NCBI GenBank assembly: GCA_045106535.1
Contig: JBGCEU010000024.1
Location: 1,438 to 65,437 of the forward strand
DNA length: 64,000 bases
From: Akkermansiaceae bacterium
GTDB lineage: Bacteria > Verrucomicrobiota > Verrucomicrobiia > Verrucomicrobiales > Akkermansiaceae
Direction: 5' to 3'
In this document: positions 13,900-25,563 of the stretch, piece by piece
Numbering within the stretch: position 1 is the first letter of the stretch
Layout of the letters: each line of letters begins with the position of its first letter
Made by a program: the position numbers and the translations under genes
Notes under the pieces: model-generated
Told to the model about the DNA's origin: nothing
The model's database searches: none
Seen by the model: the letters and a program-made list of their open reading frames with translations, nothing else

Positions 13900-14169
13900 G
13901 TGAATCAGCCTACCAAGAGCACCATAATCTCCGCCAATGGAAAATGCCTTTCCCAGCCACCCGAAGATTTAGATGAGCTGGAAATACTTATCGATGGAAA
14001 ACAGATGGCTAACGGGTGTCACGAAACATCCCTACTTGGTGGAGAGGGTGATCATTTACCTGAATCGATACAGTACCGCCTGATAGCATTCGAGCCACAA
14101 CAGGATGGCACCTGTGTGGCTCGGTATGTAAGGGTGAATGCAGACGAAAAACGATCAGCCAATGATTAG
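13900..14169 (+). CDS. Hypothetical protein (uncertain)
   Basis: 89-aa GTG ORF filling the gap between two minus-strand genes; no recognisable motif. Confidence 0.35.
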   Translation: MNQPTKSTIISANGKCLSQPPEDLDELEILIDGKQMANGCHETSLLGGEGDHLPESIQYRLIAFEPQQDGTCVARYVRVNADEKRSAND

Positions 14170-16211
14170 ACGACCGCTGCCGAAGCAGGGTGCTGATAGA
14201 CACTGTTGAGAATTTCACGGCATTCTGAGACACTGTATTTGGAAACTACTGTTGCAAGCACGGCATCGCCATACCCCTTACGGAGTAGGTTCATGTCCTC
14301 ACCCCAGTCACCACAATTATTTGACGCCATCACACGATGCAACCCTAGCAACTTAGAGAAAGAATCTAGATCTTTGGCACATGCCTGGTGGATCAATTTC
14401 AGGTAATCGGCGTTCGCCATATCACGAGCTACAACCACCGCTCTGGGAGTCTGACCCTCTGGGACATTTTGATATTTAGTGATTAGCTGCTCAAAGAACG
14501 GCGTACCGTCCTCGGGTGCGAGAGCAACTAGCTGGGTGCGCCCATCGAGTTCCTTAGGCTGCTCCGGCTCAGGCTGACTCTGGGTAACAAGCTTTTGAGC
14601 AGAAGTATGCACACCCGGCCTGTCTAGTGGGCTCGGAGTCGTATCAGCCACAGCTTTTGAAACAGCCTCTTCCGCTGCTGGTGCAGGCACCTGCTGAACT
14701 GGCACAGGCACAGGTGGAGGACTAGGAACCTCGGCAATAGCCGCATGCTGCTGCTCAGATTGCGCATCTTGCGTTTTGAATTCTTCGACTTCCACCACAG
14801 GCTCCGGCTGACGGCCCTCTGGCTCATTCTCATCAAGCAAATCAATGCCATCCTCTGTAATCTCTGATTTTTTCTTGCAGAAACGGCTCACCAAAGAAGA
14901 CAAAGCTCCTACGACACCATTTTCCCGAGGTTTCTCCTCCTCTTTAGCGGACGATTCATACTCTGCCATCGCATCAGCCACGTAATCATCGAGGTCATCA
15001 CCTATTGGCTGAGCAGCATCTATCTGGAAAACATTATCAGGCTCTTCGGTATCAACTTTCTCTGCGATTGCTCTGATATCCTCTGCATCCACAGTCTCAA
15101 ATGACTCGATCACCTCGTCTTTGTGCTCATGGGCATCATCATAGCTTTTGAAAAAAGCAGGCTGGGCAACAGCGGATGTCTCTTCCTTAGGCACCTCAGC
15201 AGCGAATACCTCACGAGCCGTGGATTCAGTGACTGCTGCAGTCTCAACTTTAAGTTCTGGAAGTGATTCGGCTTGGGGCGGTTCAATAACTTCGTTGTTA
15301 ACTACTTTTTCGACCTTGGTTTCTATCGCCTGCTCAACCTCTGCAATCTTGCTTAATTCTTCAAAAGTGTCCGTTGTATCGTCCTGACCACTGAGATCAT
15401 TCTCAGCTAATTTAGCCTCAGCTTTTTTATTAGGATCAAATGTTGCCCTACCCTCCTGCACTTTCCATGTCGGGAGTTCACGCTTGGGACCCTCCTGAGA
15501 TACAGGTTCTGGTTCGGACTCTTCAACCGTCTTGGTAGCAGTTTCTGTGTTTGTCTCTGCTTCAGGCTCGTCCTTGAACTCGGGCTTCGTCTCTGATTTT
15601 TTAGTATTAGCCTTAGTTTCCTGCTTATTCACTTGTGACATGAGAGCACGAATCGGCACCGGCTGAGTCAGTCCGTTTAGTAACTCCGCGTGGACATCTT
15701 CCGGCTGATCGTCGTTTTCATTCTCCTCATCCATCTGCGGTCCATCCCACGGGAAATCCTCTCCCATTACCTCATCCACCCATGGAAGCGATTCGACATC
15801 GGCATTCAACAGAGAAATTTCAAACCGCTCATCAATGAGGCTAGCATCAAGAGCCAGAGCAGCTCCGTAGCACCGAATCGCCTGCAGGGGCATATCCGAT
15901 TTCACGAAGAGTTTAGCCAACAATAGGTTTTCTTCTGGACTGCCGAGATTTTTTTCGATCACGGTATTGATGAGCCTCATCGCCCGTGTTGGTTGACCTT
16001 TAGCTACGATTTTTGTTGAAAAAACTATGTCCTCACCCGTCGGTGGAATTTCAGGAGCACTCCAGATCATTTGCGAGGCATCGCGATAGTAGCGAGCATC
16101 GAATAACACTTTAGCGACTTTTTTACGCATCGCCCAGTCATCGGGTGCCTGATCAACTAGCTTAATCAGAAGCTCATGGGCGCCGTCTAGCCCAGTTAGT
16201 GTACTTGTCAT
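14166..16211 (-). CDS. Hypothetical protein: N-terminal TPR-like helices, long acidic low-complexity linker, C-terminal globular region
   Basis: 681-aa ORF with an E/P/A/D-rich centre; TTGACA-N18-CATACT promoter-like sequence upstream. Confidence 0.8.
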   Translation of the reverse strand: MTSTLTGLDGAHELLIKLVDQAPDDWAMRKKVAKVLFDARYYRDASQMIWSAPEIPPTGEDIVFSTKIVAKGQPTRAMRLINTVIEKNLGSPEENLLLAKLFVKSDMPLQAIRCYGAALALDASLIDERFEISLLNADVESLPWVDEVMGEDFPWDGPQMDEENENDDQPEDVHAELLNGLTQPVPIRALMSQVNKQETKANTKKSETKPEFKDEPEAETNTETATKTVEESEPEPVSQEGPKRELPTWKVQEGRATFDPNKKAEAKLAENDLSGQDDTTDTFEELSKIAEVEQAIETKVEKVVNNEVIEPPQAESLPELKVETAAVTESTAREVFAAEVPKEETSAVAQPAFFKSYDDAHEHKDEVIESFETVDAEDIRAIAEKVDTEEPDNVFQIDAAQPIGDDLDDYVADAMAEYESSAKEEEKPRENGVVGALSSLVSRFCKKKSEITEDGIDLLDENEPEGRQPEPVVEVEEFKTQDAQSEQQHAAIAEVPSPPPVPVPVQQVPAPAAEEAVSKAVADTTPSPLDRPGVHTSAQKLVTQSQPEPEQPKELDGRTQLVALAPEDGTPFFEQLITKYQNVPEGQTPRAVVVARDMANADYLKLIHQACAKDLDSFSKLLGLHRVMASNNCGDWGEDMNLLRKGYGDAVLATVVSKYSVSECREILNSVYQHPASAAVV

Positions 16212-16238
16212 AATGTGTAAGGGTGATAGTGATGCCGA

Positions 16239-17885: not shown

Positions 17886-19694
17886 ATGATCACTCTGGCA
17901 AGTATTGAGCTACAAACGATCGACTGGTGTTTTATCATCGGATTTCTAGTTATCGCGCTTGTCATTGGCTATGCTGTATCAAAAAAAGCAGGTTCCAGTT
18001 CATCTGAGTTTTTCCTCTCTGGCCGTGGTATGCCATGGTGGTTGTTAGGATTCTCGATGGTTGCGACTACTTTTTCAACCGACACCCCAAACCTTGTTGC
18101 GGGGCTTGTTCGGGAAAAAGGAGTTGCAGGAAACTGGGCGTGGTGGGCATTTCTCGTAACTGGAATCGTTACTGTCTTCTTTTTTGCTAAACTATGGAGG
18201 CGCTCTGGTGTTCTAACCGATCTGGAGCTCTACAAGATCCGCTACAGCGGTAAGTCGGCAAGTTTTCTCAGAGGTTTCCGCGCTATCTACCTTGGCGTTA
18301 TCATCAACGTTTTCATCATGGCTTCGGTCTCCTTGGCCGCGATCAAAATCGGTGAAACCATGCTGGGGTGGAACCAATATCAGTCGGTCGGGATCGCGAT
18401 GGTCGTCACGGTGATCTTCTCATCGATGGGTGGATTTAAGGGCGTCATCATCACCGATTTTGTTCTCTTCATCATGTCGATGGTAGGATCATTCGGTGCC
18501 GCCTACTTTGCAGTGAACCACGAAGCTGTGGGAGGCTTAAGTAAATTGATCACCCACGAGAACGTGGTCGGCAAGCTATCGATGTATGCCGAAGCTGGAT
18601 CGACCAGTACAGGATTTGCTGCGGTCGGCGGACTTCTGCTCATGCCCTTACTCGTACAGTGGTGGAGTTCATGGTATCCGGGCGCGGAACCAGGTGGCGG
18701 TGGCTACATTGCACAGCGGATGTTAGCGGCCAAAGATGAAGATAATGCCGTGGGATCAGTTTTCTTTTTCCAAGTGGCACACTACGCCATCCGTCCATGG
18801 CCATGGATTCTTGTGGCCTTGGCTTCTCTCGTTATTTACCCCACCGTAGCCGACATCCAGACGGCTTTCCCCAACGCGAATAATGTTGCTGAAGACAGTG
18901 GATACTCGGCGATGCTTGTATTCCTGCCAGCAGGTTGGCTTGGGCTGGTTCTTACTTCATTGATTGCAGCCTACATGTCTACAATCTCAACCCACCTTAA
19001 CTGGGGTGCTTCCTACGTGGTGAATGACTTTTGGAAAGAGTATGTGGAAAAGAACGCCTCTGAAAGACGCCTGGTATGGATCGGGCGTATCGCCACCGTC
19101 ATTATGATGGCGCTTGCTGCGCTGGTTGCCTTTAATCTAACATCTGCAAGTCAGACATTTAATTTACTTGTCAGCCTTGGCGCTGGAACTGGCGGAGTGC
19201 TGCTTGCCCGCTGGTTCTGGTGGCGTGTCAACGCGATTTCAGAAATTGTCGCCATCATTTCCGCTACCATCGTGGCCTTATTCTTCAGCTTTGCCTCAGC
19301 CGGGCAAGAAATGTCAAGCAATGCGGGTCACTGGAGCATTCCACTTCAAGTGGCTATCGTGACTACCGCATGGCTGATCGCCACATTCGTTACCAAGCCA
19401 ACTGATCACAAAATCTTGAAAAAATTCGTGGAACAAACCAATCCAGGCGGAGCTGGATGGCGTGCTGTGCGTGAAGAAGCTATGCGCCAGGGAGAATCCA
19501 TTGATGTACAGGCAAAACCTGTCAACTTTCCGATTGCCTTCCTAGCGACGGTGGCTGGCTGCATGATGGTCTATGGAATGCTTTTCTCCGCTGGCTATTT
19601 CCTATTTGGCGAGAGCACGCTTGGATTTATCTGGTCCGGAGTTGCCGTGGTTTCTGCGATAGTCGTCAAGACCTCATGGCGAAAGCTCAGCTAA
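17886..19694 (+). CDS. Sodium:solute symporter (SSS) family transporter
   Basis: FFLSGRGMPWWLLGFSMVATTFSTDT, GGYIAQRMLAAKDE, AAYMSTISTHLNWGASY; many transmembrane segments. Confidence 0.93.
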   Translation: MITLASIELQTIDWCFIIGFLVIALVIGYAVSKKAGSSSSEFFLSGRGMPWWLLGFSMVATTFSTDTPNLVAGLVREKGVAGNWAWWAFLVTGIVTVFFFAKLWRRSGVLTDLELYKIRYSGKSASFLRGFRAIYLGVIINVFIMASVSLAAIKIGETMLGWNQYQSVGIAMVVTVIFSSMGGFKGVIITDFVLFIMSMVGSFGAAYFAVNHEAVGGLSKLITHENVVGKLSMYAEAGSTSTGFAAVGGLLLMPLLVQWWSSWYPGAEPGGGGYIAQRMLAAKDEDNAVGSVFFFQVAHYAIRPWPWILVALASLVIYPTVADIQTAFPNANNVAEDSGYSAMLVFLPAGWLGLVLTSLIAAYMSTISTHLNWGASYVVNDFWKEYVEKNASERRLVWIGRIATVIMMALAALVAFNLTSASQTFNLLVSLGAGTGGVLLARWFWWRVNAISEIVAIISATIVALFFSFASAGQEMSSNAGHWSIPLQVAIVTTAWLIATFVTKPTDHKILKKFVEQTNPGGAGWRAVREEAMRQGESIDVQAKPVNFPIAFLATVAGCMMVYGMLFSAGYFLFGESTLGFIWSGVAVVSAIVVKTSWRKLS

Positions 19695-19709: not shown

Positions 19710-19852
19710 AAAAAGGCCCCGGGAGCTTGGAGGCATCCCGGGGCATTTGGATATTTCAGTTCCTTACACGCTGATGTTTGGAAATCTGACAACTGCAACT
19801 GTTGTGTTCACCCTTAGTTTGTGTGATTGAACCCCGAAGATTACGGCGTTCA
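19710..19852 (-). ncRNA. Candidate sRNA A (ECF-promoter, GGGUGAA family)
   Basis: Promoter at 19858-19888, 5' hairpin at 19828-19852, GGGTGAAC at 19806-19813, GCAGTTGTCAG at 19786-19796 and terminator at 19711-19745, all matching unit B. Confidence 0.6.
19711..19745 (-). terminator. Intrinsic terminator of candidate sRNA A
   Basis: Minus strand GCCCCGGGA-TGCCTCCAAGC-TCCCGGGGC-CTTTT. Confidence 0.8.
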
Positions 19853-19857
19853 GGATA

Positions 19858-19888
19858 CATAGACCCCCCACTTTAGTATCCGTTCAAA
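19858..19888 (-). promoter_or_regulatory. ECF-type promoter (copy A)
   Basis: Minus strand TTTGAAC-G-gatactaaagtgggg-GGTCTATG; same spacing as the copies at 23144 and 23462. Confidence 0.75.
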
Positions 19889-19994
19889 GAAAATTAGGAT
19901 TTCCTTTCTTTTCGTGTCTAATGATAGTCTTAACGACTCGATAACCCTTTGTTTCCAAGCAATTTCGCGAATCCCTCCGCTTGAAAAAAATACA

Positions 19995-20768
19995 TCAGGG
20001 CTTCAATAATTGGATAATACCCGACACGGGACGGTGATCAGACGCCACTTTTTCCGCGATCACTTTGCTTGTGCTCCCCTTTTGCTGAAGATTACGCGTC
20101 ATGATGTAATCGATTTCGCTAGTCGGCTCACTCGCTGGAATAGTTAGCGATAAACCAACTTTAGGGAGGATATGCCATGATTCTTTAATCATTTTCATCG
20201 TCCGCGAGTCAGGTTTCGCGTTGAAATCGCCTGCCACGATCAATGGATGCTTACGCGGATGAAGCGCGCCGTTCATTGCCATCGCCTGAAGCATACGAGC
20301 TTCTCTATCCTTGTGGTGAAAGTGGATGCTCGCGAATGAGATGAAGGCTCCATCAATCTCTATCAGAACCTCCAGCACAACTCTCGCCTCACCTGGACCG
20401 GGAAGCTTATGCACCGTAGATTTTTTGATTGGAAACTTGGAGAGCACAGCATTTCCATACTGACCTCCGTCCAGGTCGATCGTTTTACCGAACGCGTGAT
20501 GCATACCTAGCAGTTCGGCGAGTTTTTTAGCCTGATCGATATTTCCGCTACGCGGCACATTGATATCGACCTCTTGTAAGGCAACCAGATCCGGCTTCTC
20601 TTTACGGATCACGTCCGCGATACGTTTGAGATCAAGCTTCCCATCCATGCCCTTGCCGTGATGGATATTGTAGGAAACGACTTTCAGTTCTTTGGCTTGG
20701 AGAGATGTCATCATCAAAAGCAATATGCACAGAATACGCATGGCTACAGAGTATGGGATGAACCGCAA
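19995..20768 (-). CDS. Endonuclease/exonuclease/phosphatase-family secreted protein
   Basis: SYNIHHG, DLVALQEVD, YGNAVLSKFP, GDFNA, IDYI and SDHRPV; start may be MRILC at 20741. Confidence 0.92.
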   Translation of the reverse strand: MRFIPYSVAMRILCILLLMMTSLQAKELKVVSYNIHHGKGMDGKLDLKRIADVIRKEKPDLVALQEVDINVPRSGNIDQAKKLAELLGMHHAFGKTIDLDGGQYGNAVLSKFPIKKSTVHKLPGPGEARVVLEVLIEIDGAFISFASIHFHHKDREARMLQAMAMNGALHPRKHPLIVAGDFNAKPDSRTMKMIKESWHILPKVGLSLTIPASEPTSEIDYIMTRNLQQKGSTSKVIAEKVASDHRPVSGIIQLLKP

Positions 20769-20811
20769 ATGTCTTGCGAATTCTGCCTGAGACGACTAAA
20801 TCCGCGCAGAC

Positions 20812-21663
20812 ATGGCAGGATTTTTTAAGAAGTTACTCAACAAGGTCACCAATACAGCGGAGATCGACTGGGACGAACTCGAGGCCGACCTTATCGGCGC
20901 TGATCTGGGTGCGCGCACGACGATGGCGATTATCGATGACCTGCAAGACATGGGGCGCAAGATCTCCGGTGAGGACGTGGTGGATGTTTGCAAACAGCAC
21001 ATCGCCAAGATCCTGAAAGACGCACCCCCTGCCCTGACTCCACGCAGCGATGGAAAACCGGTCGTCATCCTCGTGGTCGGGGTGAACGGAACTGGAAAAA
21101 CTACCTCATCGGCGAAACTAGCCAATCTGCTCAAGAATCAAGGTCACTCAGTCATGCTTGCCGCCGCTGACACCTTCCGTGCAGCAGCCGTTGAGCAGCT
21201 CGCCACCTGGGGTGAGCGACTGGACATCCCAGTGGTCAAGGGTGCACACAATGCCGACCCTTCATCGGTTTGCTACACGGCTCATCAGCAAGCCATTACC
21301 AACGGCACACAGTTTCTTATATGCGATACTGCCGGACGGATTCACACCCGCCACAACCTGATGCAAGAGCTTGGAAAAATCGAACGAACCATCAGCAAAC
21401 AGGACGAAAATGCTCCGCACGTAAAGCTGCTAGTCGTGGACGCGACCACTGGTGGCAATGCACTCGCTCAGGCTAAGGAATTTAACAAAGCCATCGAACT
21501 CGACGGCCTGATCGTCACCAAGATGGATGGATCAGGAAAAGGAGGCGTCGCAGTGCTCATTCAGCAAGAGCTGGACATCCCGACTCATTTCATCGGCCTC
21601 GGCGAAGAACCTGAGCAGTTTCAGAAATTTGAGAAAGAGGATTTCGTGAACGGCATCTTCTAA
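20812..21663 (+). CDS. ftsY: Signal recognition particle receptor FtsY (NG domain only)
   Basis: GVNGTGKTTS, AADTFRAAA, DTAGR, DATTGGNA, TKMDGSGKGG. Confidence 0.96.
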   Translation: MAGFFKKLLNKVTNTAEIDWDELEADLIGADLGARTTMAIIDDLQDMGRKISGEDVVDVCKQHIAKILKDAPPALTPRSDGKPVVILVVGVNGTGKTTSSAKLANLLKNQGHSVMLAAADTFRAAAVEQLATWGERLDIPVVKGAHNADPSSVCYTAHQQAITNGTQFLICDTAGRIHTRHNLMQELGKIERTISKQDENAPHVKLLVVDATTGGNALAQAKEFNKAIELDGLIVTKMDGSGKGGVAVLIQQELDIPTHFIGLGEEPEQFQKFEKEDFVNGIF

Positions 21664-21668
21664 GGAGT

Positions 21669-21771
21669 GGGGACACTCTTGTCCCCGGCTCACTGTCGTG
21701 CGAGTAGTGCCGTAGAAACGGTTTTCAACCGTTTTGCCGAACCGGCAAGAGCTTGAAAAGCTCTTCTACGG
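21669..21771. repeat. REP-like composite: one hairpin plus an inverted GTAG-type REP doublet
   Basis: GGGGACA-CTCT-TGTCCCC (21669-21686); CCGTAGAA-ACGG-TTTTCAA-CCGT-TT (21710-21734) and an inverted CCGTAGAA-GAGC-TTTTCAA-GCTC-TT (21747-21771), with spacer hairpin GCCG-AAC-CGGC. Confidence 0.75.
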
Positions 21772-21798
21772 TGGAGGCCGTATAGCACGGGGCTGTCC

Positions 21799-23049
21799 CT
21801 AAAAATTCATCCGCCCAATGTCCGTGCGTTTCTGGGCACCATCGAAGCTGACTTTTTCTAACTCAGCATAAGCGGCATCAACCGCTGAGATCCGGTCTTC
21901 CCCACCAGCCACCACGGCAAGCACTCTACCGCCGTTTGTTTCCCAGTCGCCGTTTTCATTACGGCGGGTTCCTGCGTGATAGACACGGGCGTTAGAAACT
22001 TCATCAAGTCCGGAAATCACATCACCGCTGCGTGAACTAGCGGGGTACCCTGTACTGGCGAGTATCAGGCAGACACTCCAGCCTTCGTCGAAACTGAGCA
22101 GCTCAGGTTTCATCTCGCCTTTGGCCGCAGCGAGACAGAATGATGCGATGTCACCTTTTACTAACGGCATGACGGCCTGGCACTCGGGATCGCCAAAGCG
22201 GCAGTTATACTCGATAATTTTTGGGCCGTCTGGCGTCATCATCAGACCGAAGTAAAGGTAACCGCGATAGGGTAGCCCATCCTTGATTAAGCCGTCTACT
22301 GTCGGCTGCACGATTGTTTTTTCAATCGTCGCTAGCGTTTCGGCATCGATTAGCTGCCTGCTCGCCACCGCACCCATGCCACCTGTGTTAGGGCCTTCAT
22401 CGTTATCACCGATGCGTTTGTAATCGCGAGCCGGTGTGAAAATCAAATACTTGTCATCACAGACAGCCGCGAAAATAGATACCTCTGGACCAGTCAGGCA
22501 TTCTTCGACTAGCAGCCGACCTTCTCCAAACTTGCGCTCAACCAGCACCTCGTTAAGAAATTCCTCGGCGCTCGTCTCGTCCTCGCAGACAGCAACACCT
22601 TTTCCAGCAGCCAGACCATCGAACTTTAGCACTGTAGGATATTTCCCAGAAATCGCCGTCCGTGCTTCGTCGATGTCCGCGCATCCTGTCGCCGCTCCAG
22701 TCGGAATTCCGTGCTTGAGCATGAATTCCTTGGCAAACTCCTTGCTCGCCTCAAGCTGCGCCGACTGCTTATGTGGCCCCCAGCATGGAATTCCTGCTTT
22801 TTCACACAGGTTGGCGAGTCCTTCATCCTTCACCAGATAGCTTTCCTCACCTGCGACACAGAGATCGATTTCATTCTCACTCATCCAGTCAATCAAACTG
22901 TGCAATCCATCCACCTCAACGCTCTGTGCCAATGCTGAAATGGCATCACTTCCGGGAAAACAGTAAATTTCTGTCTCCACGGGAGATTCGTCCAATGCGG
23001 TGATCAATGCGTGCTCACGCCCTCCTTTTCCTACTACGAGAATTTTCAT
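21799..23049 (-). CDS. purD: Phosphoribosylamine--glycine ligase
   Basis: MKILVVGKGGREHA, LEASKEFAK, DGLAAGKGV, DYKRIGDNDEGPNTGGMGA, EYNCRFGDPE, TNGGRVL. Confidence 0.97.
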   Translation of the reverse strand: MKILVVGKGGREHALITALDESPVETEIYCFPGSDAISALAQSVEVDGLHSLIDWMSENEIDLCVAGEESYLVKDEGLANLCEKAGIPCWGPHKQSAQLEASKEFAKEFMLKHGIPTGAATGCADIDEARTAISGKYPTVLKFDGLAAGKGVAVCEDETSAEEFLNEVLVERKFGEGRLLVEECLTGPEVSIFAAVCDDKYLIFTPARDYKRIGDNDEGPNTGGMGAVASRQLIDAETLATIEKTIVQPTVDGLIKDGLPYRGYLYFGLMMTPDGPKIIEYNCRFGDPECQAVMPLVKGDIASFCLAAAKGEMKPELLSFDEGWSVCLILASTGYPASSRSGDVISGLDEVSNARVYHAGTRRNENGDWETNGGRVLAVVAGGEDRISAVDAAYAELEKVSFDGAQKRTDIGRMNF

Positions 23050-23143
23050 CGCCGCTAATGAAGCGAACCAAGAGCCCGCTAGCAAGCTGTTTGCGCAAGG
23101 AAATACAGCATTCCCAAGGAATCTGAAATTTTTTTACGGAAAG

Positions 23144-23174
23144 TTTGAACGTCTATGAACATTGACGGTCTATG
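23144..23174 (+). promoter_or_regulatory. ECF-type promoter (copy B)
   Basis: TTTGAAC-G-tctatgaacattgac-GGTCTATG. Confidence 0.75.
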
Positions 23175-23180
23175 TTTTCT

Positions 23181-23380
23181 GAATGACGCGAGTTGTGTCG
23201 CATCATTCGGGTGAACTAAAGCAGTTGTCAGCTTCTCGCGAAGTGATGTTGTCAGCGTCACTGAGCAAAACAATCAGCCGGACTAGGTTCCCTCCCAAAG
23301 TAACCCCCTCCAGCCTACGATTAAACACCAGGAAGTTGATTCAAAAAGCCCCAGGAGTCCTCCAACTCCTGGGGCTTTTA
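23181..23380 (+). ncRNA. Candidate sRNA B
   Basis: 5' hairpin at 23181-23208, GGGTGAAC at 23209-23216, GCAGTTGTCAG at 23221-23231, C-rich CCTCC motifs, terminator at 23348-23380. Confidence 0.62.
23343..23380 (+). terminator. Intrinsic (possibly bidirectional) terminator of candidate sRNA B
   Basis: AAAAA-GCCCCAGGAGT-CCTCCA-ACTCCTGGGGC-TTTT. Confidence 0.85.
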
Positions 23381-23461
23381 CGTTTTTACAGCTCTCGTTT
23401 CAGTGCAGAATCCCTTTAGATTCATTGATTTTCTCACAAATCGAAAAAAAACACGAAAAAC

Positions 23462-23492
23462 TTTGAACATACTCTCGAGTCGAGGGTCTATG
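23462..23492 (+). promoter_or_regulatory. ECF-type promoter (copy C)
   Basis: TTTGAAC-A-tactctcgagtcgag-GGTCTATG. Confidence 0.75.
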
Positions 23493-23495
23493 GCT

Positions 23496-23652
23496 AACGT
23501 GGGACGCAATGCGCACCACATTTCATGTAAGGGTGAAATCATAGTTTCATGCTCTAGCCCGAGTTCAAAGAGTCCCCTCTCGAGAACACAAGGCAGAGTA
23601 AGATTCAAAAATCGGCTCCAAGGAGATTCCTGTCTCTCCTTGGGGTTTTTTT
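23496..23652 (+). ncRNA. Candidate sRNA C
   Basis: 5' hairpin GTGG..CGC-AAT-GCG..CCAC, AAGGGTGAA at 23529-23537, terminator at 23615-23652. Confidence 0.58.
23615..23652 (+). terminator. Intrinsic terminator of candidate sRNA C
   Basis: CCAAGGAGA (23618-23626) pairs with TCTCCTTGG (23635-23643), followed by GG and a run of 7 T. Confidence 0.85.
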
Positions 23653-23746
23653 GTATCCAGATATCAGATGATGAGGTCGTCATAGGGCTGATTACTGCCA
23701 CTAGGCGTGAAACGATCATTTTTGCCTGAAATACTAGGCTTTAGGG

Positions 23747-23775
23747 TTGCTACATCGCATTTCTCTCACTAGATT
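23747..23775 (+). promoter_or_regulatory. Sigma70-type promoter for the ppiD-like gene
   Basis: TTGCTA-N17-TAGATT. Confidence 0.5.
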
Positions 23776-23826: not shown

Positions 23827-25563
23827 ATGATTGAAAGCATGCGCAAATACACTGGTCTTATGATCGTCGTTTTCATCCTGCTCGGTGCAGGGTTCCTATT
23901 CACTATGAACGACATCGGCACCGGTAGTGGCTCGGGTGGTGGAAGTGGCCCAGCTGTTCTTGAAGTGTACGGCCAGTCGATTGACGAGCAGGAGTATTAC
24001 CGCCGAGGTGATCGCACCTTGCAGCTTGCAAGCGAACTCGGATTACATAACTACGTTAACTTCCTGATCATTCCAGATATTCAGCAGCTAATGCAAGCGA
24101 ATCAGCTCATGCGTATGGGATATCCCAATTATTATGTCACAATGAGCCGTAACATCGGCCAGCAAGATCTTAACCGGTTCATTGCTAACCGCATGACCTT
24201 GCAACGCTCAATGGGAGAAATGGGTCTCTACGCGAGCGAGGAAGAAGTGACCGATTTCCTCAAAACATCTCCGCGTTTTGCTCCGACTGGCCAGTACGAT
24301 GCTGGCGAGTATGCATCATTTGTCGACAAACGTCTTGGTCGCCTCGGAATGACTGAAAAACACCTTCGTGAGGTTGTTCGCGAAAGCCTCTGCCTTAGCA
24401 AGCTCATTCAACTCGTTGGATCAGGTCTGACAGCCCCTCGCTCGTCTGTGAAGGATCAATTGGAAGCGAGAAGCCAAACTGTAACCCTCGCTCGTGTGGT
24501 GTTGAATCGTGACGATTTTGTAGAAAAAGAAGACCCGACTGAGGAAGAAATCAAAACCTACTGGGAAGCACATAAAGACGCTTACAAAACCGAAGAGCAA
24601 CGCCGCATTGCATACATCCTCCTTGACGTTCCCAAAGACGAAACCAAGGATGACAAAAAAGATGACAAGGCTGCTGAGGGCACCGTTGAGAGCGATGCTG
24701 AAAAAGATCGTAAGGCTGCCGAAGATGCAGCGAAAAAAACTGCTGAAGAAGAAAAGAAGAAAGCTCGCACTGCGGTAATGCGCAAAATCGAAGCTGTATC
24801 TGACTCCATTATTCAGAAGATCAACGACAAACAAGAGCTCAAGCTTGAGGAAATTGTAAAACAACACGGAGAAGCGTTAGTCAGAACTGAGCTGTTCACT
24901 CGTTCCGCTCCGCCAGAAAAACTCAAAGGGCTAGTCATGAGAGGTGGCACTTCACGAGGCAAAAGTCTGACTGAAGAAATCTTCACCATGCCCATGACCT
25001 CAGACAAGTATGACCTTGTTTCCAAACCCCTGCCCGTCGGTGAAAACGCTTGGATTATTTTCCGGCTTGATGAAGTTATCGAGCCTGTGCTGCTTGACTA
25101 CACAGCGGCACGCGGCAAGGCACGCGCTAATCTCATTGGAGAAAATGCCACCGAGAAAGTGAAAGCTGCTGCTGACGAAGCCAGAGAAAAAATTTCCGCT
25201 GCTTTAGTAGAGGGTAAGAGTTTTGATGATGCCGCCAAAGAGCTTGCTCTAACACCAGTACAGGTTGGCCCTTACTCCTTTGACGGCATACCTCCAAAAA
25301 ACGAGCCTAGCCATCGCCAGCTGCACCAAACAGCTCAAGGCCTGAACCCCGGACAAGTATCAGAGGCAATCCACGAGAACGATCGTTCTGTTATTATTTT
25401 TGTAGAAAAGCGTGAAATCGAAGATACAGAAGAAAACAAGAATAGAATCGACTCCATGGTAACTGGCTCAAAGGGAGAATTCATGGTTCGTACATTTTTG
25501 AACTGGCGTAACACCCAGTTCAACGAAGCCAAACTCAGCGGACCTTTCACTGAAAAGAAATAG
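23827..25563 (+). CDS. SurA N-terminal domain / PpiD-like periplasmic chaperone
   Basis: MIESMRKYTGLMIVVFILL membrane anchor, SEEEV..FL, PTEEEIKTYWEAHKDAYKTEEQRRIAYI; PpiD-like layout. Confidence 0.75.
   Translation: MIESMRKYTGLMIVVFILLGAGFLFTMNDIGTGSGSGGGSGPAVLEVYGQSIDEQEYYRRGDRTLQLASELGLHNYVNFLIIPDIQQLMQANQLMRMGYPNYYVTMSRNIGQQDLNRFIANRMTLQRSMGEMGLYASEEEVTDFLKTSPRFAPTGQYDAGEYASFVDKRLGRLGMTEKHLREVVRESLCLSKLIQLVGSGLTAPRSSVKDQLEARSQTVTLARVVLNRDDFVEKEDPTEEEIKTYWEAHKDAYKTEEQRRIAYILLDVPKDETKDDKKDDKAAEGTVESDAEKDRKAAEDAAKKTAEEEKKKARTAVMRKIEAVSDSIIQKINDKQELKLEEIVKQHGEALVRTELFTRSAPPEKLKGLVMRGGTSRGKSLTEEIFTMPMTSDKYDLVSKPLPVGENAWIIFRLDEVIEPVLLDYTAARGKARANLIGENATEKVKAAADEAREKISAALVEGKSFDDAAKELALTPVQVGPYSFDGIPPKNEPSHRQLHQTAQGLNPGQVSEAIHENDRSVIIFVEKREIEDTEENKNRIDSMVTGSKGEFMVRTFLNWRNTQFNEAKLSGPFTEKK

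What the first reader, a model, noticed from the sequence alone, without database searches (positions are those of the whole stretch)
19710..23652. Candidate family of three ECF-sigma-dependent small RNAs sharing promoter, architecture and GGGUGAA core
Seen: three intergenic loci carry TTTGAAC-N16-GGTCTATG with identical spacing (19858-19888 minus, 23144-23174 plus, 23462-23492 plus); I did not spot this motif elsewhere in the window by eye. Each is followed by a 5' hairpin, GGGTGAA 34-44 nt after the -10 box, and a GC-rich intrinsic terminator, giving RNAs of about 140, 200 and 155 nt. No common ORF exists: the GTG in the core gives a 15-aa peptide in A but stops after 2-3 codons in B and C. 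Established: GAAC(-35)/GTCT-TCTA(-10) is the RpoE/ECF promoter type, and sigmaE-dependent sRNAs (MicA, RybB) form the repressive arm of envelope-stress responses in enterobacteria. Inference: a sibling-sRNA arm of an ECF stress regulon in Verrucomicrobiota; I know of no description of it.
Basis: partly seen in the sequence, partly recalled or inferred. Interest (0 to 1): 0.9.

Follow-up and report, generated by a model that had tools for sequence, protein, structure and literature searches.

The report
Sibling small RNAs with ECF-type promoters
Three intergenic loci in this marine Akkermansiaceae genome belong to a conserved, undescribed family of small non-coding RNAs whose promoter matches the one in front of an RpoE-like envelope-stress sigma factor operon, which suggests that verrucomicrobia have an RNA arm of the envelope stress response like the one in E. 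coli.

Summary
TTTGAAC-N16-GGTCTATG occurs exactly three times in the window and nowhere else in the 3.8-Mb genome. Each copy is followed by a 5' hairpin, GGGTGAA and an intrinsic terminator.

The loci are real and conserved. A fourth sibling, D, lies on another contig. Covariance models find the family in about half of sampled genomes of the GTDB family (10-11 of 20 genera), often in 2-5 copies and in tandem. No hit fell outside the family among 201 class-level genomes. Rfam has no match.

- **Architecture:** SL1, an invariant single-stranded CAUGUAAGGGUGAAC(AGC), SL2, then the terminator.
- **Promoter:** TTGAAC and GTC stay fixed while the 17-nt spacer varies. The same TGAAC-N17-GTC lies upstream of a conserved RpoE-like sigma / anti-sigma / DegS-like PDZ operon in 16 of 31 orthologous loci.
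- **Ancestral position:** directly upstream of a ppiD-like chaperone gene, the position sRNA C holds here.
- **Targets:** complementarity to the seed is enriched at translation start regions, including secreted proteins and the sigma mRNA itself.

Sigma dependence and targets are inferred. No usable transcript data were found. Verdict: a new sRNA family of a known regulatory kind.

The parts
19858..19888 (-). Promoter of sRNA A: TTTGAAC-N16-GGTCTATG (ECF-type -35 TTGAAC, -10 GGTCTAT)
   Evidence: Exact match. Orthologous promoters in 7 or more same-genus genomes keep both boxes while the spacer changes. Best PWM score in the genome, 43.4 bits.
19710..19852 (-). sRNA A, about 143 nt: 5' hairpin, UAAGGGUGAAC, GCAGUUGUCAG, AUCAGCGUGUA, terminator with CCUCCAA loop. 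The 5' end is predicted, not mapped.
   Evidence: Model R1 hit 19710-19858, 146 bits, E=8.6e-38. Alignment A2 with orthologues. Fold.
23144..23174 (+). Promoter of sRNA B
   Evidence: Exact match. Orthologues in G003, G007, G010, G014 and G019 keep the boxes. PWM 26.3 bits.
23181..23384 (+). sRNA B, about 204 nt: 5' hairpin, GGGUGAAC, GCAGUUGUCAGC, a second GUUGUCAGCGUCAC, C-rich tracts, terminator 23344-23379 with CCUCCAA loop. The 5' end is predicted.
   Evidence: Only a partial R1 hit at 23311-23375. It is a lengthened, genus-specific variant.
23462..23492 (+). Promoter of sRNA C
   Evidence: Exact match. Orthologues in G019 and G007 have TTCGAAC-N16-GGTCTATG and TTCGAAC-N16-GAGTCTATA. PWM 36.7 bits.
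23499..23654 (+). sRNA C, about 156 nt: 5' hairpin, UUCAUGUAAGGGUGAAAU, terminator 23614-23647. It occupies the ancestral position directly upstream of the ppiD-like gene. The 5' end is predicted.
   Evidence: R1 hit 23492-23651, 21.8 bits, E=0.006. In 15 of 19 distant-genus loci the sRNA lies 75-200 nt upstream of a ppiD-like gene on the same strand.
23827..25563 (+). ppiD-like periplasmic chaperone gene (578 aa, N-terminal membrane anchor), the conserved downstream neighbour of the sRNA. It has its own sigma-70-like promoter candidate, TTGCTA-N17-TAGATT, at about 23746-23774.
Evidence: tblastn synteny. Sequence.
16216..16226 (-). Candidate target site: the mRNA of gene 14166-16211(-) carries UCACCCUUACA at -15 to -5 from its AUG, complementary to UGUAAGGGUGA of sRNAs C and D
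   Evidence: It is one of 18-20 start regions with a complement of 10 nt or more. Prediction only.

Best explanation
A, B and C, together with D on contig C54, are genes for sibling trans-acting small RNAs of one family conserved across non-Akkermansia Akkermansiaceae.

Shown:
- Each gene has a bipartite promoter TTGAAC-N17-GTC(T)(A)(T), a 5' stem-loop that starts 7-9 nt after the -10 box, an invariant unpaired stretch CAUGUAAGGGUGAAC(AGC), a second stem-loop (AGUUGUCAGCUUC paired with GAGGUUGA..ACU) and an intrinsic terminator.

Inferred:
- The promoter is read by the RpoE-like ECF sigma factor encoded at G000 C162:2598-3224(-). That gene is followed by a one-pass anti-sigma factor and a DegS/HtrA-like PDZ protein, and in many genomes it carries the same motif upstream, which would be autoregulation.
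- When envelope stress frees the sigma factor, the sRNAs are made. Without Hfq, they pair through the G-rich seed with the G-poor, Shine-Dalgarno-less start regions of mRNAs for exported or envelope proteins (PEP-CTERM proteins, a secretin, a pseudopilin and lipoproteins).
- They also pair with the sigma factor's own 5' UTR, lowering translation. This would be the non-coding, repressive arm of the response.
- Read-through of the ancestral copy may add sigma-dependent expression of the downstream ppiD-like chaperone.
For: - **Observation:** three exact motifs against 0.08 expected, and unique in the genome.
- **Conservation:** blastn hits in 7 same-genus genomes. R1 finds the family in 49 of 151 family genomes and 11 of 20 genera. 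R2 finds it in 27 of 61. In a class-level sample of 201 genomes it appears only in this family.
- **Promoter:** in 46 distinct promoters, information is concentrated in TTGAACR and GGTCT and is near zero in the spacer. No TAnnnT -10 element is present.
- **Structure:** 33 pairs are 95% paired, 12 of them with compensatory changes, and 0 of 500 shuffles reach this; slid controls give 37-49% paired. The middle region is unpaired and invariant.
- **Sigma link:** TGAAC-N16-18-GTC lies 94-260 nt upstream of the ECF gene in 16 of 31 orthologous loci, against about 0.055 expected per locus (binomial p about 1e-12). The sigma / anti-sigma / PDZ operon is conserved in 31 of 31 and 27 of 31 loci. The best NCBIfam hit of the sigma is RpoE and that of the third gene is DegP/DegS.
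- **Co-occurrence:** sRNA+ECF+ 24, sRNA+ECF- 3, sRNA-ECF+ 17, neither 17; Fisher p=0.0012.
- **PWM scan of the genome:** the top four hits are the four sRNAs, followed among intergenic hits by the ECF operon.
- **Synteny:** the sRNA is next to a ppiD-like gene.
- **Targets:** a complement of 10 nt or more occurs in 18-20 start regions, against 4-5 for shuffled seeds (maximum 7-10), 1-5 in gene interiors and 1-2 antisense. The narrower seed gives 10 against 3.6, reached by 3 of 200 shuffles. The ECF 5' UTRs carry (GU)UCACCC(UUAC) at -20 to -30 in 6 of 31 loci with 8 nt or more, against 0.8 expected (0.3% of shuffles).
- **Translation context:** leaders are G-poor with no SD signal. No Hfq or CsrA was found.
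Against: - No transcript ends were seen. Metatranscriptome contigs cover relatives' copies at depth 2-4 but run into the flanks, promoter included, so they may be DNA or read-through.
- Half of the ECF orthologues show only a sigma-70-like promoter.
- 17 genomes have the sigma factor but no detected sRNA, and 3 have the sRNA without a detected sigma orthologue.
- The co-occurrence and UTR statistics ignore shared ancestry.
- The PWM was trained on sRNA promoters, so the small regulon it finds is partly circular.
- Seeds A and B show no start-region enrichment.
- PEP-CTERM genes as a class are not enriched.
- The signal-peptide share among hits (6 of 10) is not clearly above the crude background of 0.39.
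Confidence: 0.62

Rival explanations
1. The RNA is primarily a cis-acting 5' leader or attenuator of the ppiD-like chaperone gene. The terminator would be a regulated premature stop, and the copies elsewhere (A, B, D) would be duplicated leaders with or without function.
For: In 15 of 19 distant-genus loci, and at copy C in the window, the element lies 75-200 nt upstream of ppiD on the same strand.
Against: Strong terminators with long U-runs are present and no conserved alternative (antiterminator) pairing was seen. A separate conserved sigma-70-like promoter candidate lies between the terminator and ppiD. The best-conserved copies in this genus (A and D) sit at unrelated loci, and A faces the 3' end of a convergent gene. 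The most conserved part is an unpaired stretch, not a structured pocket.
Confidence: 0.12
2. These are real sibling sRNAs, but the conserved bipartite motif is not an ECF promoter. It would be read by another alternative sigma factor, or by sigma-70 with a dedicated activator, and the resemblance to the motif upstream of the RpoE-like operon reflects co-regulation by that other factor.
For: The genome encodes about 27 ECF-type sigma genes, and no experiment links any of them to the motif. Only 16 of 31 ECF orthologues carry the motif.
Against: AAC at -35 and GTC at -10 with a 17-nt gap is the signature of ECF promoters (established knowledge, for example E. coli sigmaE GGAACTT-N16-TCAAA). No TAnnnT element is present. 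Only one of about 27 ECF genes in the genome has the motif upstream, and that gene's presence tracks the sRNA.
Confidence: 0.12
3. The RNAs act mainly by binding and titrating a protein, in the manner of CsrB or 6S, through repeated motifs (GUUGUCAG repeats in B, C-rich or CCUCCAA terminator loops), rather than by pairing with mRNAs.
For: Motifs are repeated within B and its orthologues: GCAGUUGUCAG, GUUGUCAGCGUCA, and in G003 GCAGUUACCCGC twice and GUUAUCAG twice. C-rich loops are conserved in the terminators. The copy number is high.
Against: The ancestral, widespread form has a single copy of each motif. No CsrA or Hfq homologue was found. The seed shows enriched complementarity to start regions.
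Confidence: 0.07
4. The loci encode small proteins, starting at the GUG in GGGUGAA or at the UUG/AUG in GCAG(U/A)UGUCAGC.
For: A UUG or AUG is conserved in GCAGUUGUCAG / GCAGAUGUCAG, and the first codons would read M-S-A in many members.
Against: From GUG the frame runs 15 codons in A, 2 in B and 3 in C. From UUG/AUG the peptides are 10-18 aa or run through the terminator, with no conservation after the third residue. Members differ by indels that are not multiples of three, for example an 8-nt insert in A relative to D. The variable stretch shows compensatory base-pair changes, for example in L164 versus L165.
Confidence: 0.03

Closest known systems
MicA, RybB and MicL, the sigmaE-dependent sRNAs of E. 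coli and Salmonella (for example PMC1804206, PMC5736990)
   Same: They are short non-coding RNAs with an ECF (sigmaE)-type promoter and an intrinsic terminator, and several unrelated or sibling sRNAs belong to one regulon. The sigma factor sits in an operon with a membrane anti-sigma factor, and a DegS-type PDZ protease belongs to the pathway. A conserved seed is predicted to pair at translation start regions of exported-protein mRNAs, with predicted feedback on the sigma system.
   Different: There is no sequence or structure homology (no Rfam hit). No Hfq is present in the genome. Target leaders lack Shine-Dalgarno sequences. The seed lies between two stem-loops rather than at the extreme 5' end as in RybB. 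The siblings arose by duplication of one gene. The phylum is Verrucomicrobiota.
VrrA and MicV of Vibrio cholerae (PMC6694218)
   Same: Two sigmaE-dependent sRNAs share a conserved seed-pairing domain and act redundantly on envelope protein mRNAs. This is the closest analogue of siblings with a shared seed.
   Different: They are Hfq-dependent, gammaproteobacterial and of unrelated sequence. Here there are up to 4-5 copies per genome, often in tandem.
FoxI and FoxJ of Fusobacterium nucleatum (PMC11005410)
   Same: They set the precedent that a sigmaE-type factor has an sRNA arm in a phylum far from Proteobacteria and without Hfq.
   Different: The sequences and phylum are unrelated. FoxJ activates some mRNAs. 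The Fox sRNAs were shown experimentally, whereas the present family is only predicted.
Sibling sRNA families such as Qrr1-5, PrrF1/2 and OmrA/B
   Same: They have multiple paralogous copies, some in tandem, each with its own copy of the same specialised promoter and an identical seed. The B-C tandem here and the tandem pairs in G064, G065, G075, G085 and G094 fit this pattern.
   Different: Their regulators differ (sigma54/LuxO, Fur, OmpR) and their sequences are unrelated.

Membership tests
ECF/sigmaE-dependent envelope-stress sRNAs (functional class) | Promoter of ECF type: AAC-containing -35, GTC-containing -10, spacer about 16-17 nt, no TAnnnT | tested here: met
   TTGAAC-N17-GTCTAT in all four copies and in 46 distinct orthologous promoters. 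Information is concentrated in the two boxes.
ECF/sigmaE-dependent envelope-stress sRNAs (functional class) | The same promoter motif occurs in front of the cognate sigma factor's own operon (autoregulation) | tested here: met
   One of about 27 ECF genes in G000 has TTGAAC-N17-GTCTGC at -135. The motif is present in 16 of 31 orthologous loci. The other 15 show only a sigma-70-like promoter.
ECF/sigmaE-dependent envelope-stress sRNAs (functional class) | Transcript induced by envelope stress or by release or overexpression of the sigma factor | not testable with these tools
   No isolate transcriptomes were reachable.
ECF/sigmaE-dependent envelope-stress sRNAs (functional class) | Non-coding, ends in an intrinsic terminator, discrete gene | tested here: met
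   Terminators found. No conserved ORF.
ECF/sigmaE-dependent envelope-stress sRNAs (functional class) | Seed pairing with mRNAs of outer-membrane or exported proteins | tested here: inconclusive
   Complementarity is enriched at start regions. Candidates include PEP-CTERM proteins, a secretin and a pseudopilin. There is no class-wide enrichment and no experiment.
Enterobacterial Hfq-dependent sRNAs (MicA RF00078, RybB RF00110 and relatives) | Match to the Rfam covariance model | tested here: not met
   No hit at gathering score in the window or in 12 related loci. Only chance-level hits appear at E<10.
Enterobacterial Hfq-dependent sRNAs (MicA RF00078, RybB RF00110 and relatives) | Hfq chaperone present in the organism | tested here: not met
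   tblastn with E. coli Hfq gives a best E of 1.1 in a 94.5%-complete assembly.
RpoE (NCBIfam TIGR02939) for the candidate sigma factor | Score above the curated cut-off of the equivalog model | tested here: not met
   138.4 bits against a cut-off of 236. It is the best-scoring model but below threshold. The ECF superfamily model TIGR02937 is met (114.6 against 42.9).
Cis-regulatory leader or riboswitch | Constant position upstream of one gene class, plus a structured ligand or antiterminator domain supported by covariation | tested here: inconclusive
   The position upstream of ppiD is conserved for the ancestral copy. The siblings lie elsewhere, the conserved core is unpaired and no alternative pairing was found.

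The most novel reading that the evidence does not exclude
The sRNA family couples envelope stress directly to the cell-division and peptidoglycan (dcw) operon. The mraZ-rsmH spacer of this genus (G000 C136:16339-16659) carries, on the mRNA strand, two tandem antisense copies of the whole sRNA core: ACACGCUGAUA, CUGACAAC and GUUCACCC(UUA), plus hairpins whose loops read UUGGAGGGAG, complementary to the CCUCCAA terminator loops of A and B. A target, or an mRNA-embedded sponge, would thus have been created by inverted duplication of the regulator itself. This would give multi-block and loop-loop pairing with every sibling in an organism that lacks both Hfq and Shine-Dalgarno-led initiation.
Probability: 0.25. 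Interest if true: 0.75.

Novelty: new member of a known kind. Interest (0 to 1): 0.62.

Why it matters
As far as the literature searches here show, no regulatory sRNA and no ECF regulon has been described in Verrucomicrobiota, and the family is not in Rfam.

If confirmed, three things follow. First, an envelope-stress sigma factor with a repressive sRNA arm would have arisen or been kept in the PVC group. That adds a third distant lineage after Proteobacteria and Fusobacteria. Second, it would supply a model for Hfq-independent seed pairing on leaders that lack Shine-Dalgarno sequences. Third, it gives concrete handles for experiments in cultivable Luteolibacter, Haloferula, Roseibacillus or Rubritalea strains: a promoter, a candidate sigma / anti-sigma / protease module, a 15-nt seed and a short target list. 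The two covariance models could be turned into an Rfam family.

Tried and rejected
- **Rfam:** searched at gathering and at permissive thresholds on the window and 12 related loci. Nothing was found.
- **Public reads:** DNA holders exist. One marine-sediment metatranscriptome contig covers 19708-19799, and soil and rhizosphere metatranscriptome contigs cover a relative's copy. All are at depth 2-4 and extend into the flanks and the promoter, so they prove no transcript.
- **Small-protein reading:** rejected. Frames differ among siblings and indels are not in threes.
- **Sigma-70 reading of the boxes:** rejected. There is no TAnnnT, and the invariant element is GTC.
- **PEP-CTERM genes as a target class:** not supported (Mann-Whitney p=0.99).
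- **Whole-genome duplex-energy ranking:** gave a noisy list dominated by mis-called starts and was not used.
- **PWM regulon scan:** beyond the sRNAs and the ECF operon it gave a tRNA false positive and one weak Wzz-like candidate.
- **Other GGGTGAA-containing sites:** a TAAGGGTGAATGCAGACG string at window 14129 lies inside a small ORF upstream of the 14166-16211 gene and is probably chance. Other TAAGGGTGAA hits are sense-strand coding sequence or RNase P RNA.
- **A conserved TTGAAC..GGTCTGT locus upstream of cysC in relatives:** it is embedded in a covarying hairpin and is absent from this assembly, so it was not pursued.


Full report
**Observation**

The 31-nt pattern TTTGAAC-N16-GGTCTATG occurs exactly at 19858-19888(-), 23144-23174(+) and 23462-23492(+). 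Allowing two mismatches adds nothing. None of 100 shuffles gives three matches. The three sites are the only exact copies in the 3.8-Mb, 236-contig assembly. Each is followed by a short hairpin, GGGTGAA at 35-45 nt, and a G+C-rich hairpin with a T-run. The surrounding genes are:
- a 602-aa ORF ending at 19694;
- a 257-aa ORF, 19995-20768(-);
- ftsY, 20812-21663;
- purD, 21799-23085(-);
- a ppiD-like gene from 23827.

All three units are therefore intergenic. purD is 84-87% identical to marine Akkermansiaceae / 'Oceaniferula' MAGs.

**More siblings**

Relaxing the pattern finds a fourth unit, D, at C54:17002-17177(-). It has TCGAAC-N17-GTCTAT and the core CAUGUAAGGGUGAAUUGCAGAUGUCAGC...UAUCAGCGUGU, which bridges C (CAUGUAAGGGUGAA) to A and B (GCAGUUGUCAG, AUCAGCGUGU).

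**Conservation**

blastn finds orthologues of A, B, C and D in same-genus genomes. The two boxes are kept while the spacer changes freely.

- Model R1 was built on 13 A- and D-type sequences. It hits 49 of 151 genomes of the GTDB family, in 11 of 20 genera.
- The distant hits all read 5' hairpin, UUUUCAUGUAAGGGUGAACAGCAGUUGUCAGCUUC, variable hairpin, terminator. Nearly all are preceded by TTGAAC-N17-GGTC(T/A/G).
- Model R2 was built on 19 distant sequences. It hits 27 of 61 family genomes, commonly with 2-5 copies and tandem pairs.
- In a class-level sample of 201 genomes from 110 genera, R2 hits only this family. A genus of 2-3-Mb, 99-100%-complete genomes, probably Akkermansia itself, lacks it.
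- Rfam has no match.

**Structure**

On alignment A5 the three-helix model is 95% paired. Twelve pairs show compensatory changes, 0 of 500 shuffles reach this, and slid controls give 37-49% paired. The covariation is strongest in the terminator, present in the inner part of SL1, and weak in SL2, which is mostly invariant.

Between SL1 and SL2 lies an invariant stretch, AUGUAAGGGUGAACAGC, with no supported pairing. A possible 5-bp UUCAU/GUGAA mini-hairpin that would display GUAAGG never varies, so it cannot be judged. This is the anatomy of a seed-bearing trans-acting sRNA.

**No coding potential**

Frames from the GUG differ among siblings (15, 2 and 3 codons). Frames from the conserved UUG/AUG give 10-18-aa peptides that share only M-S-A. 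Members differ by indels that are not multiples of three.

**Promoter and sigma factor**

Forty-six distinct sRNA promoters give a profile with information only in (T-rich)TTGAACR and GGTCT(A)(T). AAC at -35 and GTC at -10, 17 nt apart, with no TAnnnT, is the ECF signature (established knowledge, for example sigmaE).

- Of about 27 ECF-type genes in the genome, only one carries the motif upstream. This is a 208-aa protein at C162:2598-3224(-), with TTGAAC-N17-GTCTGC at -135.
- Its best NCBIfam model is RpoE, below the cut-off. The next gene encodes a one-pass anti-sigma-like protein with no family hit. The third encodes a DegS/DegP-like PDZ protein.
- The three-gene unit is conserved in 31 of 31 (anti-sigma) and 27 of 31 (PDZ protein) orthologous loci.
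- TGAAC-N16-18-GTC lies 94-260 nt upstream of the sigma gene in 16 of 31 loci, against about 0.055 expected per locus. The remainder show a sigma-70-like TTTACA/TTGACA...TAGnnT promoter.
- Across 61 genomes the sRNA is nearly a subset of the sigma orthologue's distribution (24/3/17/17, Fisher p=0.0012, not corrected for phylogeny).
- A PWM scan of the genome ranks the four sRNAs first. Among intergenic hits, after a tRNA false positive, come the ECF operon and a Wzz-like gene.

**Ancestral context**

In 15 of 19 distant-genus loci the sRNA lies 75-200 nt upstream of a ppiD-like chaperone gene on the same strand. A conserved sigma-70-like promoter candidate lies between terminator and ppiD. The chaperone is therefore not dependent on the sRNA promoter, but read-through could add to its expression.

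**Likely mode of action (inferred)**

The genome's leaders are G-poor and show no Shine-Dalgarno signal. No Hfq or CsrA homologue is detectable.

- Complements of 10 nt or more to the seeds of C, D and the family consensus occur in 18-20 translation start regions. This compares with 4-5 for shuffled seeds (maximum 7-10), 1-5 for gene interiors and 1-2 for the antisense strand. Seeds A and B show no excess.
- With CAUG removed from the seed the excess remains: 10 against 3.6, reached by 3 of 200 shuffles.
- Typical sites are (C)CCUUACAUGAAA(A), with the start codon inside the duplex, or CACCCUUACA at -15 to -30.
- Candidate targets include three PEP-CTERM proteins, a secretin, a pseudopilin, lipoproteins, the window gene 14166-16211(-) and the ECF mRNA itself.
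- Orthologous ECF 5' UTRs carry (GU)UCACCC(UUAC) at -20 to -30 in 6 of 31 loci with 8 nt or more, against 0.8 expected. This suggests feedback on the sigma factor.
- PEP-CTERM genes as a class are not enriched.

**An unexpected relative of the family**

The mraZ-rsmH spacer (C136:16339-16659) holds two promoter-less, terminator-less units that are sRNA-like on the strand opposite to the dcw genes. The region is conserved in 25 of 31 genomes of the genus. It is absent or fragmentary in the genomes that lack the sRNAs and the sigma orthologue.

On the mRNA strand it reads ACACGCUGAUA...CUGACAAC...GUUCACCC(UUA), plus hairpins with UUGGAGGGAG loops. It is thus complementary block by block to the siblings, including the CCUCCAA terminator loops of A and B. 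A U.G/C.G alternation at the loop-closing pair fits folding of the mRNA strand. Whether this region is a target, a sponge or a cis-antisense sibling is open.

**Expression data**

Metatranscriptome assemblies contain pieces of A (one 151-nt contig) and of a relative's copy. They are at depth 2-4 and extend into the flanks, once including the promoter. This is not evidence of a discrete transcript.

**Comparison and verdict**

The logic matches the sigmaE sRNAs MicA, RybB and MicL, the Vibrio pair VrrA/MicV with a shared seed, and the Fusobacterium FoxI/FoxJ (PMC1804206, PMC6694218, PMC11005410). There is no sequence homology to any of them, no Hfq, and the targets lack Shine-Dalgarno sequences. 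Literature searches found no description of sRNAs or ECF regulons in Verrucomicrobiota.

I rate the existence of a conserved non-coding sRNA family at about 0.9, dependence on the RpoE-like ECF sigma factor at about 0.7, and seed pairing with envelope-protein and sigma mRNAs at about 0.5. The finding is a new member of a known kind and well worth an experiment.

Noticed in passing
outside the window: G000 contig C136:16339-16659 (locus L208:1140-1460): The mraZ-rsmH spacer holds two tandem units homologous to the sRNA core, in antisense orientation to the dcw genes. They have no ECF promoter and no T-run. Their hairpin loops read UUGGAGGGAG on the mRNA strand, complementary to the CCUCCAA loops of sRNAs A and B. 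The region is conserved in 25 of 31 genomes of the genus.
   Followed up: partly
outside the window: G000 contig C54:17002-17177 (-): A fourth sibling, D, has TCGAAC-N17-GTCTAT. It is the copy closest to the family-wide consensus and is highly conserved in G003, G007, G010, G014 and G019.
   Followed up: yes
outside the window: G000 contig C162:2598-3366 (-): An RpoE-like ECF sigma gene has TTGAAC-N17-GTCTGC at -135 and a TTGACA-type promoter nearer the gene. CACCCUUACA in its 5' UTR is complementary to the sRNA seed. It is followed by an anti-sigma gene and a DegS/HtrA-like PDZ gene.
   Followed up: yes
relatives: L126-L130 (G014, G019, G007, G003, G010): Another conserved TTGAAC-N17-GGTCTGT is embedded in a covarying hairpin followed by a T-run. 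It lies upstream of a conserved leader (..AUCGACCAAGGGCGGUAGCGU..) and, in two of the genomes, cysC. It has no Rfam match and was not found in this assembly.
   Followed up: partly
whole genome G000 (2070 ATG-start ORFs): Positions -25 to -1 before start codons are G-poor (10-21% G) with no Shine-Dalgarno enrichment. Initiation seems SD-independent, as in Bacteroidota.
   Followed up: partly
whole genome G000: tblastn found no Hfq or CsrA homologue (best E about 1) in a 94.5%-complete assembly.
   Followed up: partly
outside the window: G000 contig C122:5740-5777 (-): A weak ECF-type promoter match (TTGAAC-N17-GTCTCA, 14.6 bits) ends 12 nt before the ATG of a Wzz/GumC-like polysaccharide chain-length gene. 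It is a possible protein-coding regulon member or leaderless mRNA.
   Followed up: no
L124 (G003:C19) and the orthologous ECF genes: TTGAAC-N17-GTCTG also occurs inside the ECF coding region (..KLNEAMQELS..), just before region 4. It may be an internal promoter for the anti-sigma gene or a by-product of the protein sequence.
   Followed up: no
window 14119-14160 (+): GTATGTAAGGGTGAATGCAGACGAAAAACGATCAGCC resembles the sRNA core, but it lies inside a short ORF with no promoter or terminator. It is probably chance or a decayed fragment.
   Followed up: partly
window 23746-23774 (+): Between sRNA C and the ppiD-like gene there is a sigma-70-like promoter candidate, TTGCTA-N17-TAGATT, conserved in G007 (..TTTAGGGTTGCTACAT..TCTCTCACTAG..).
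   Followed up: no
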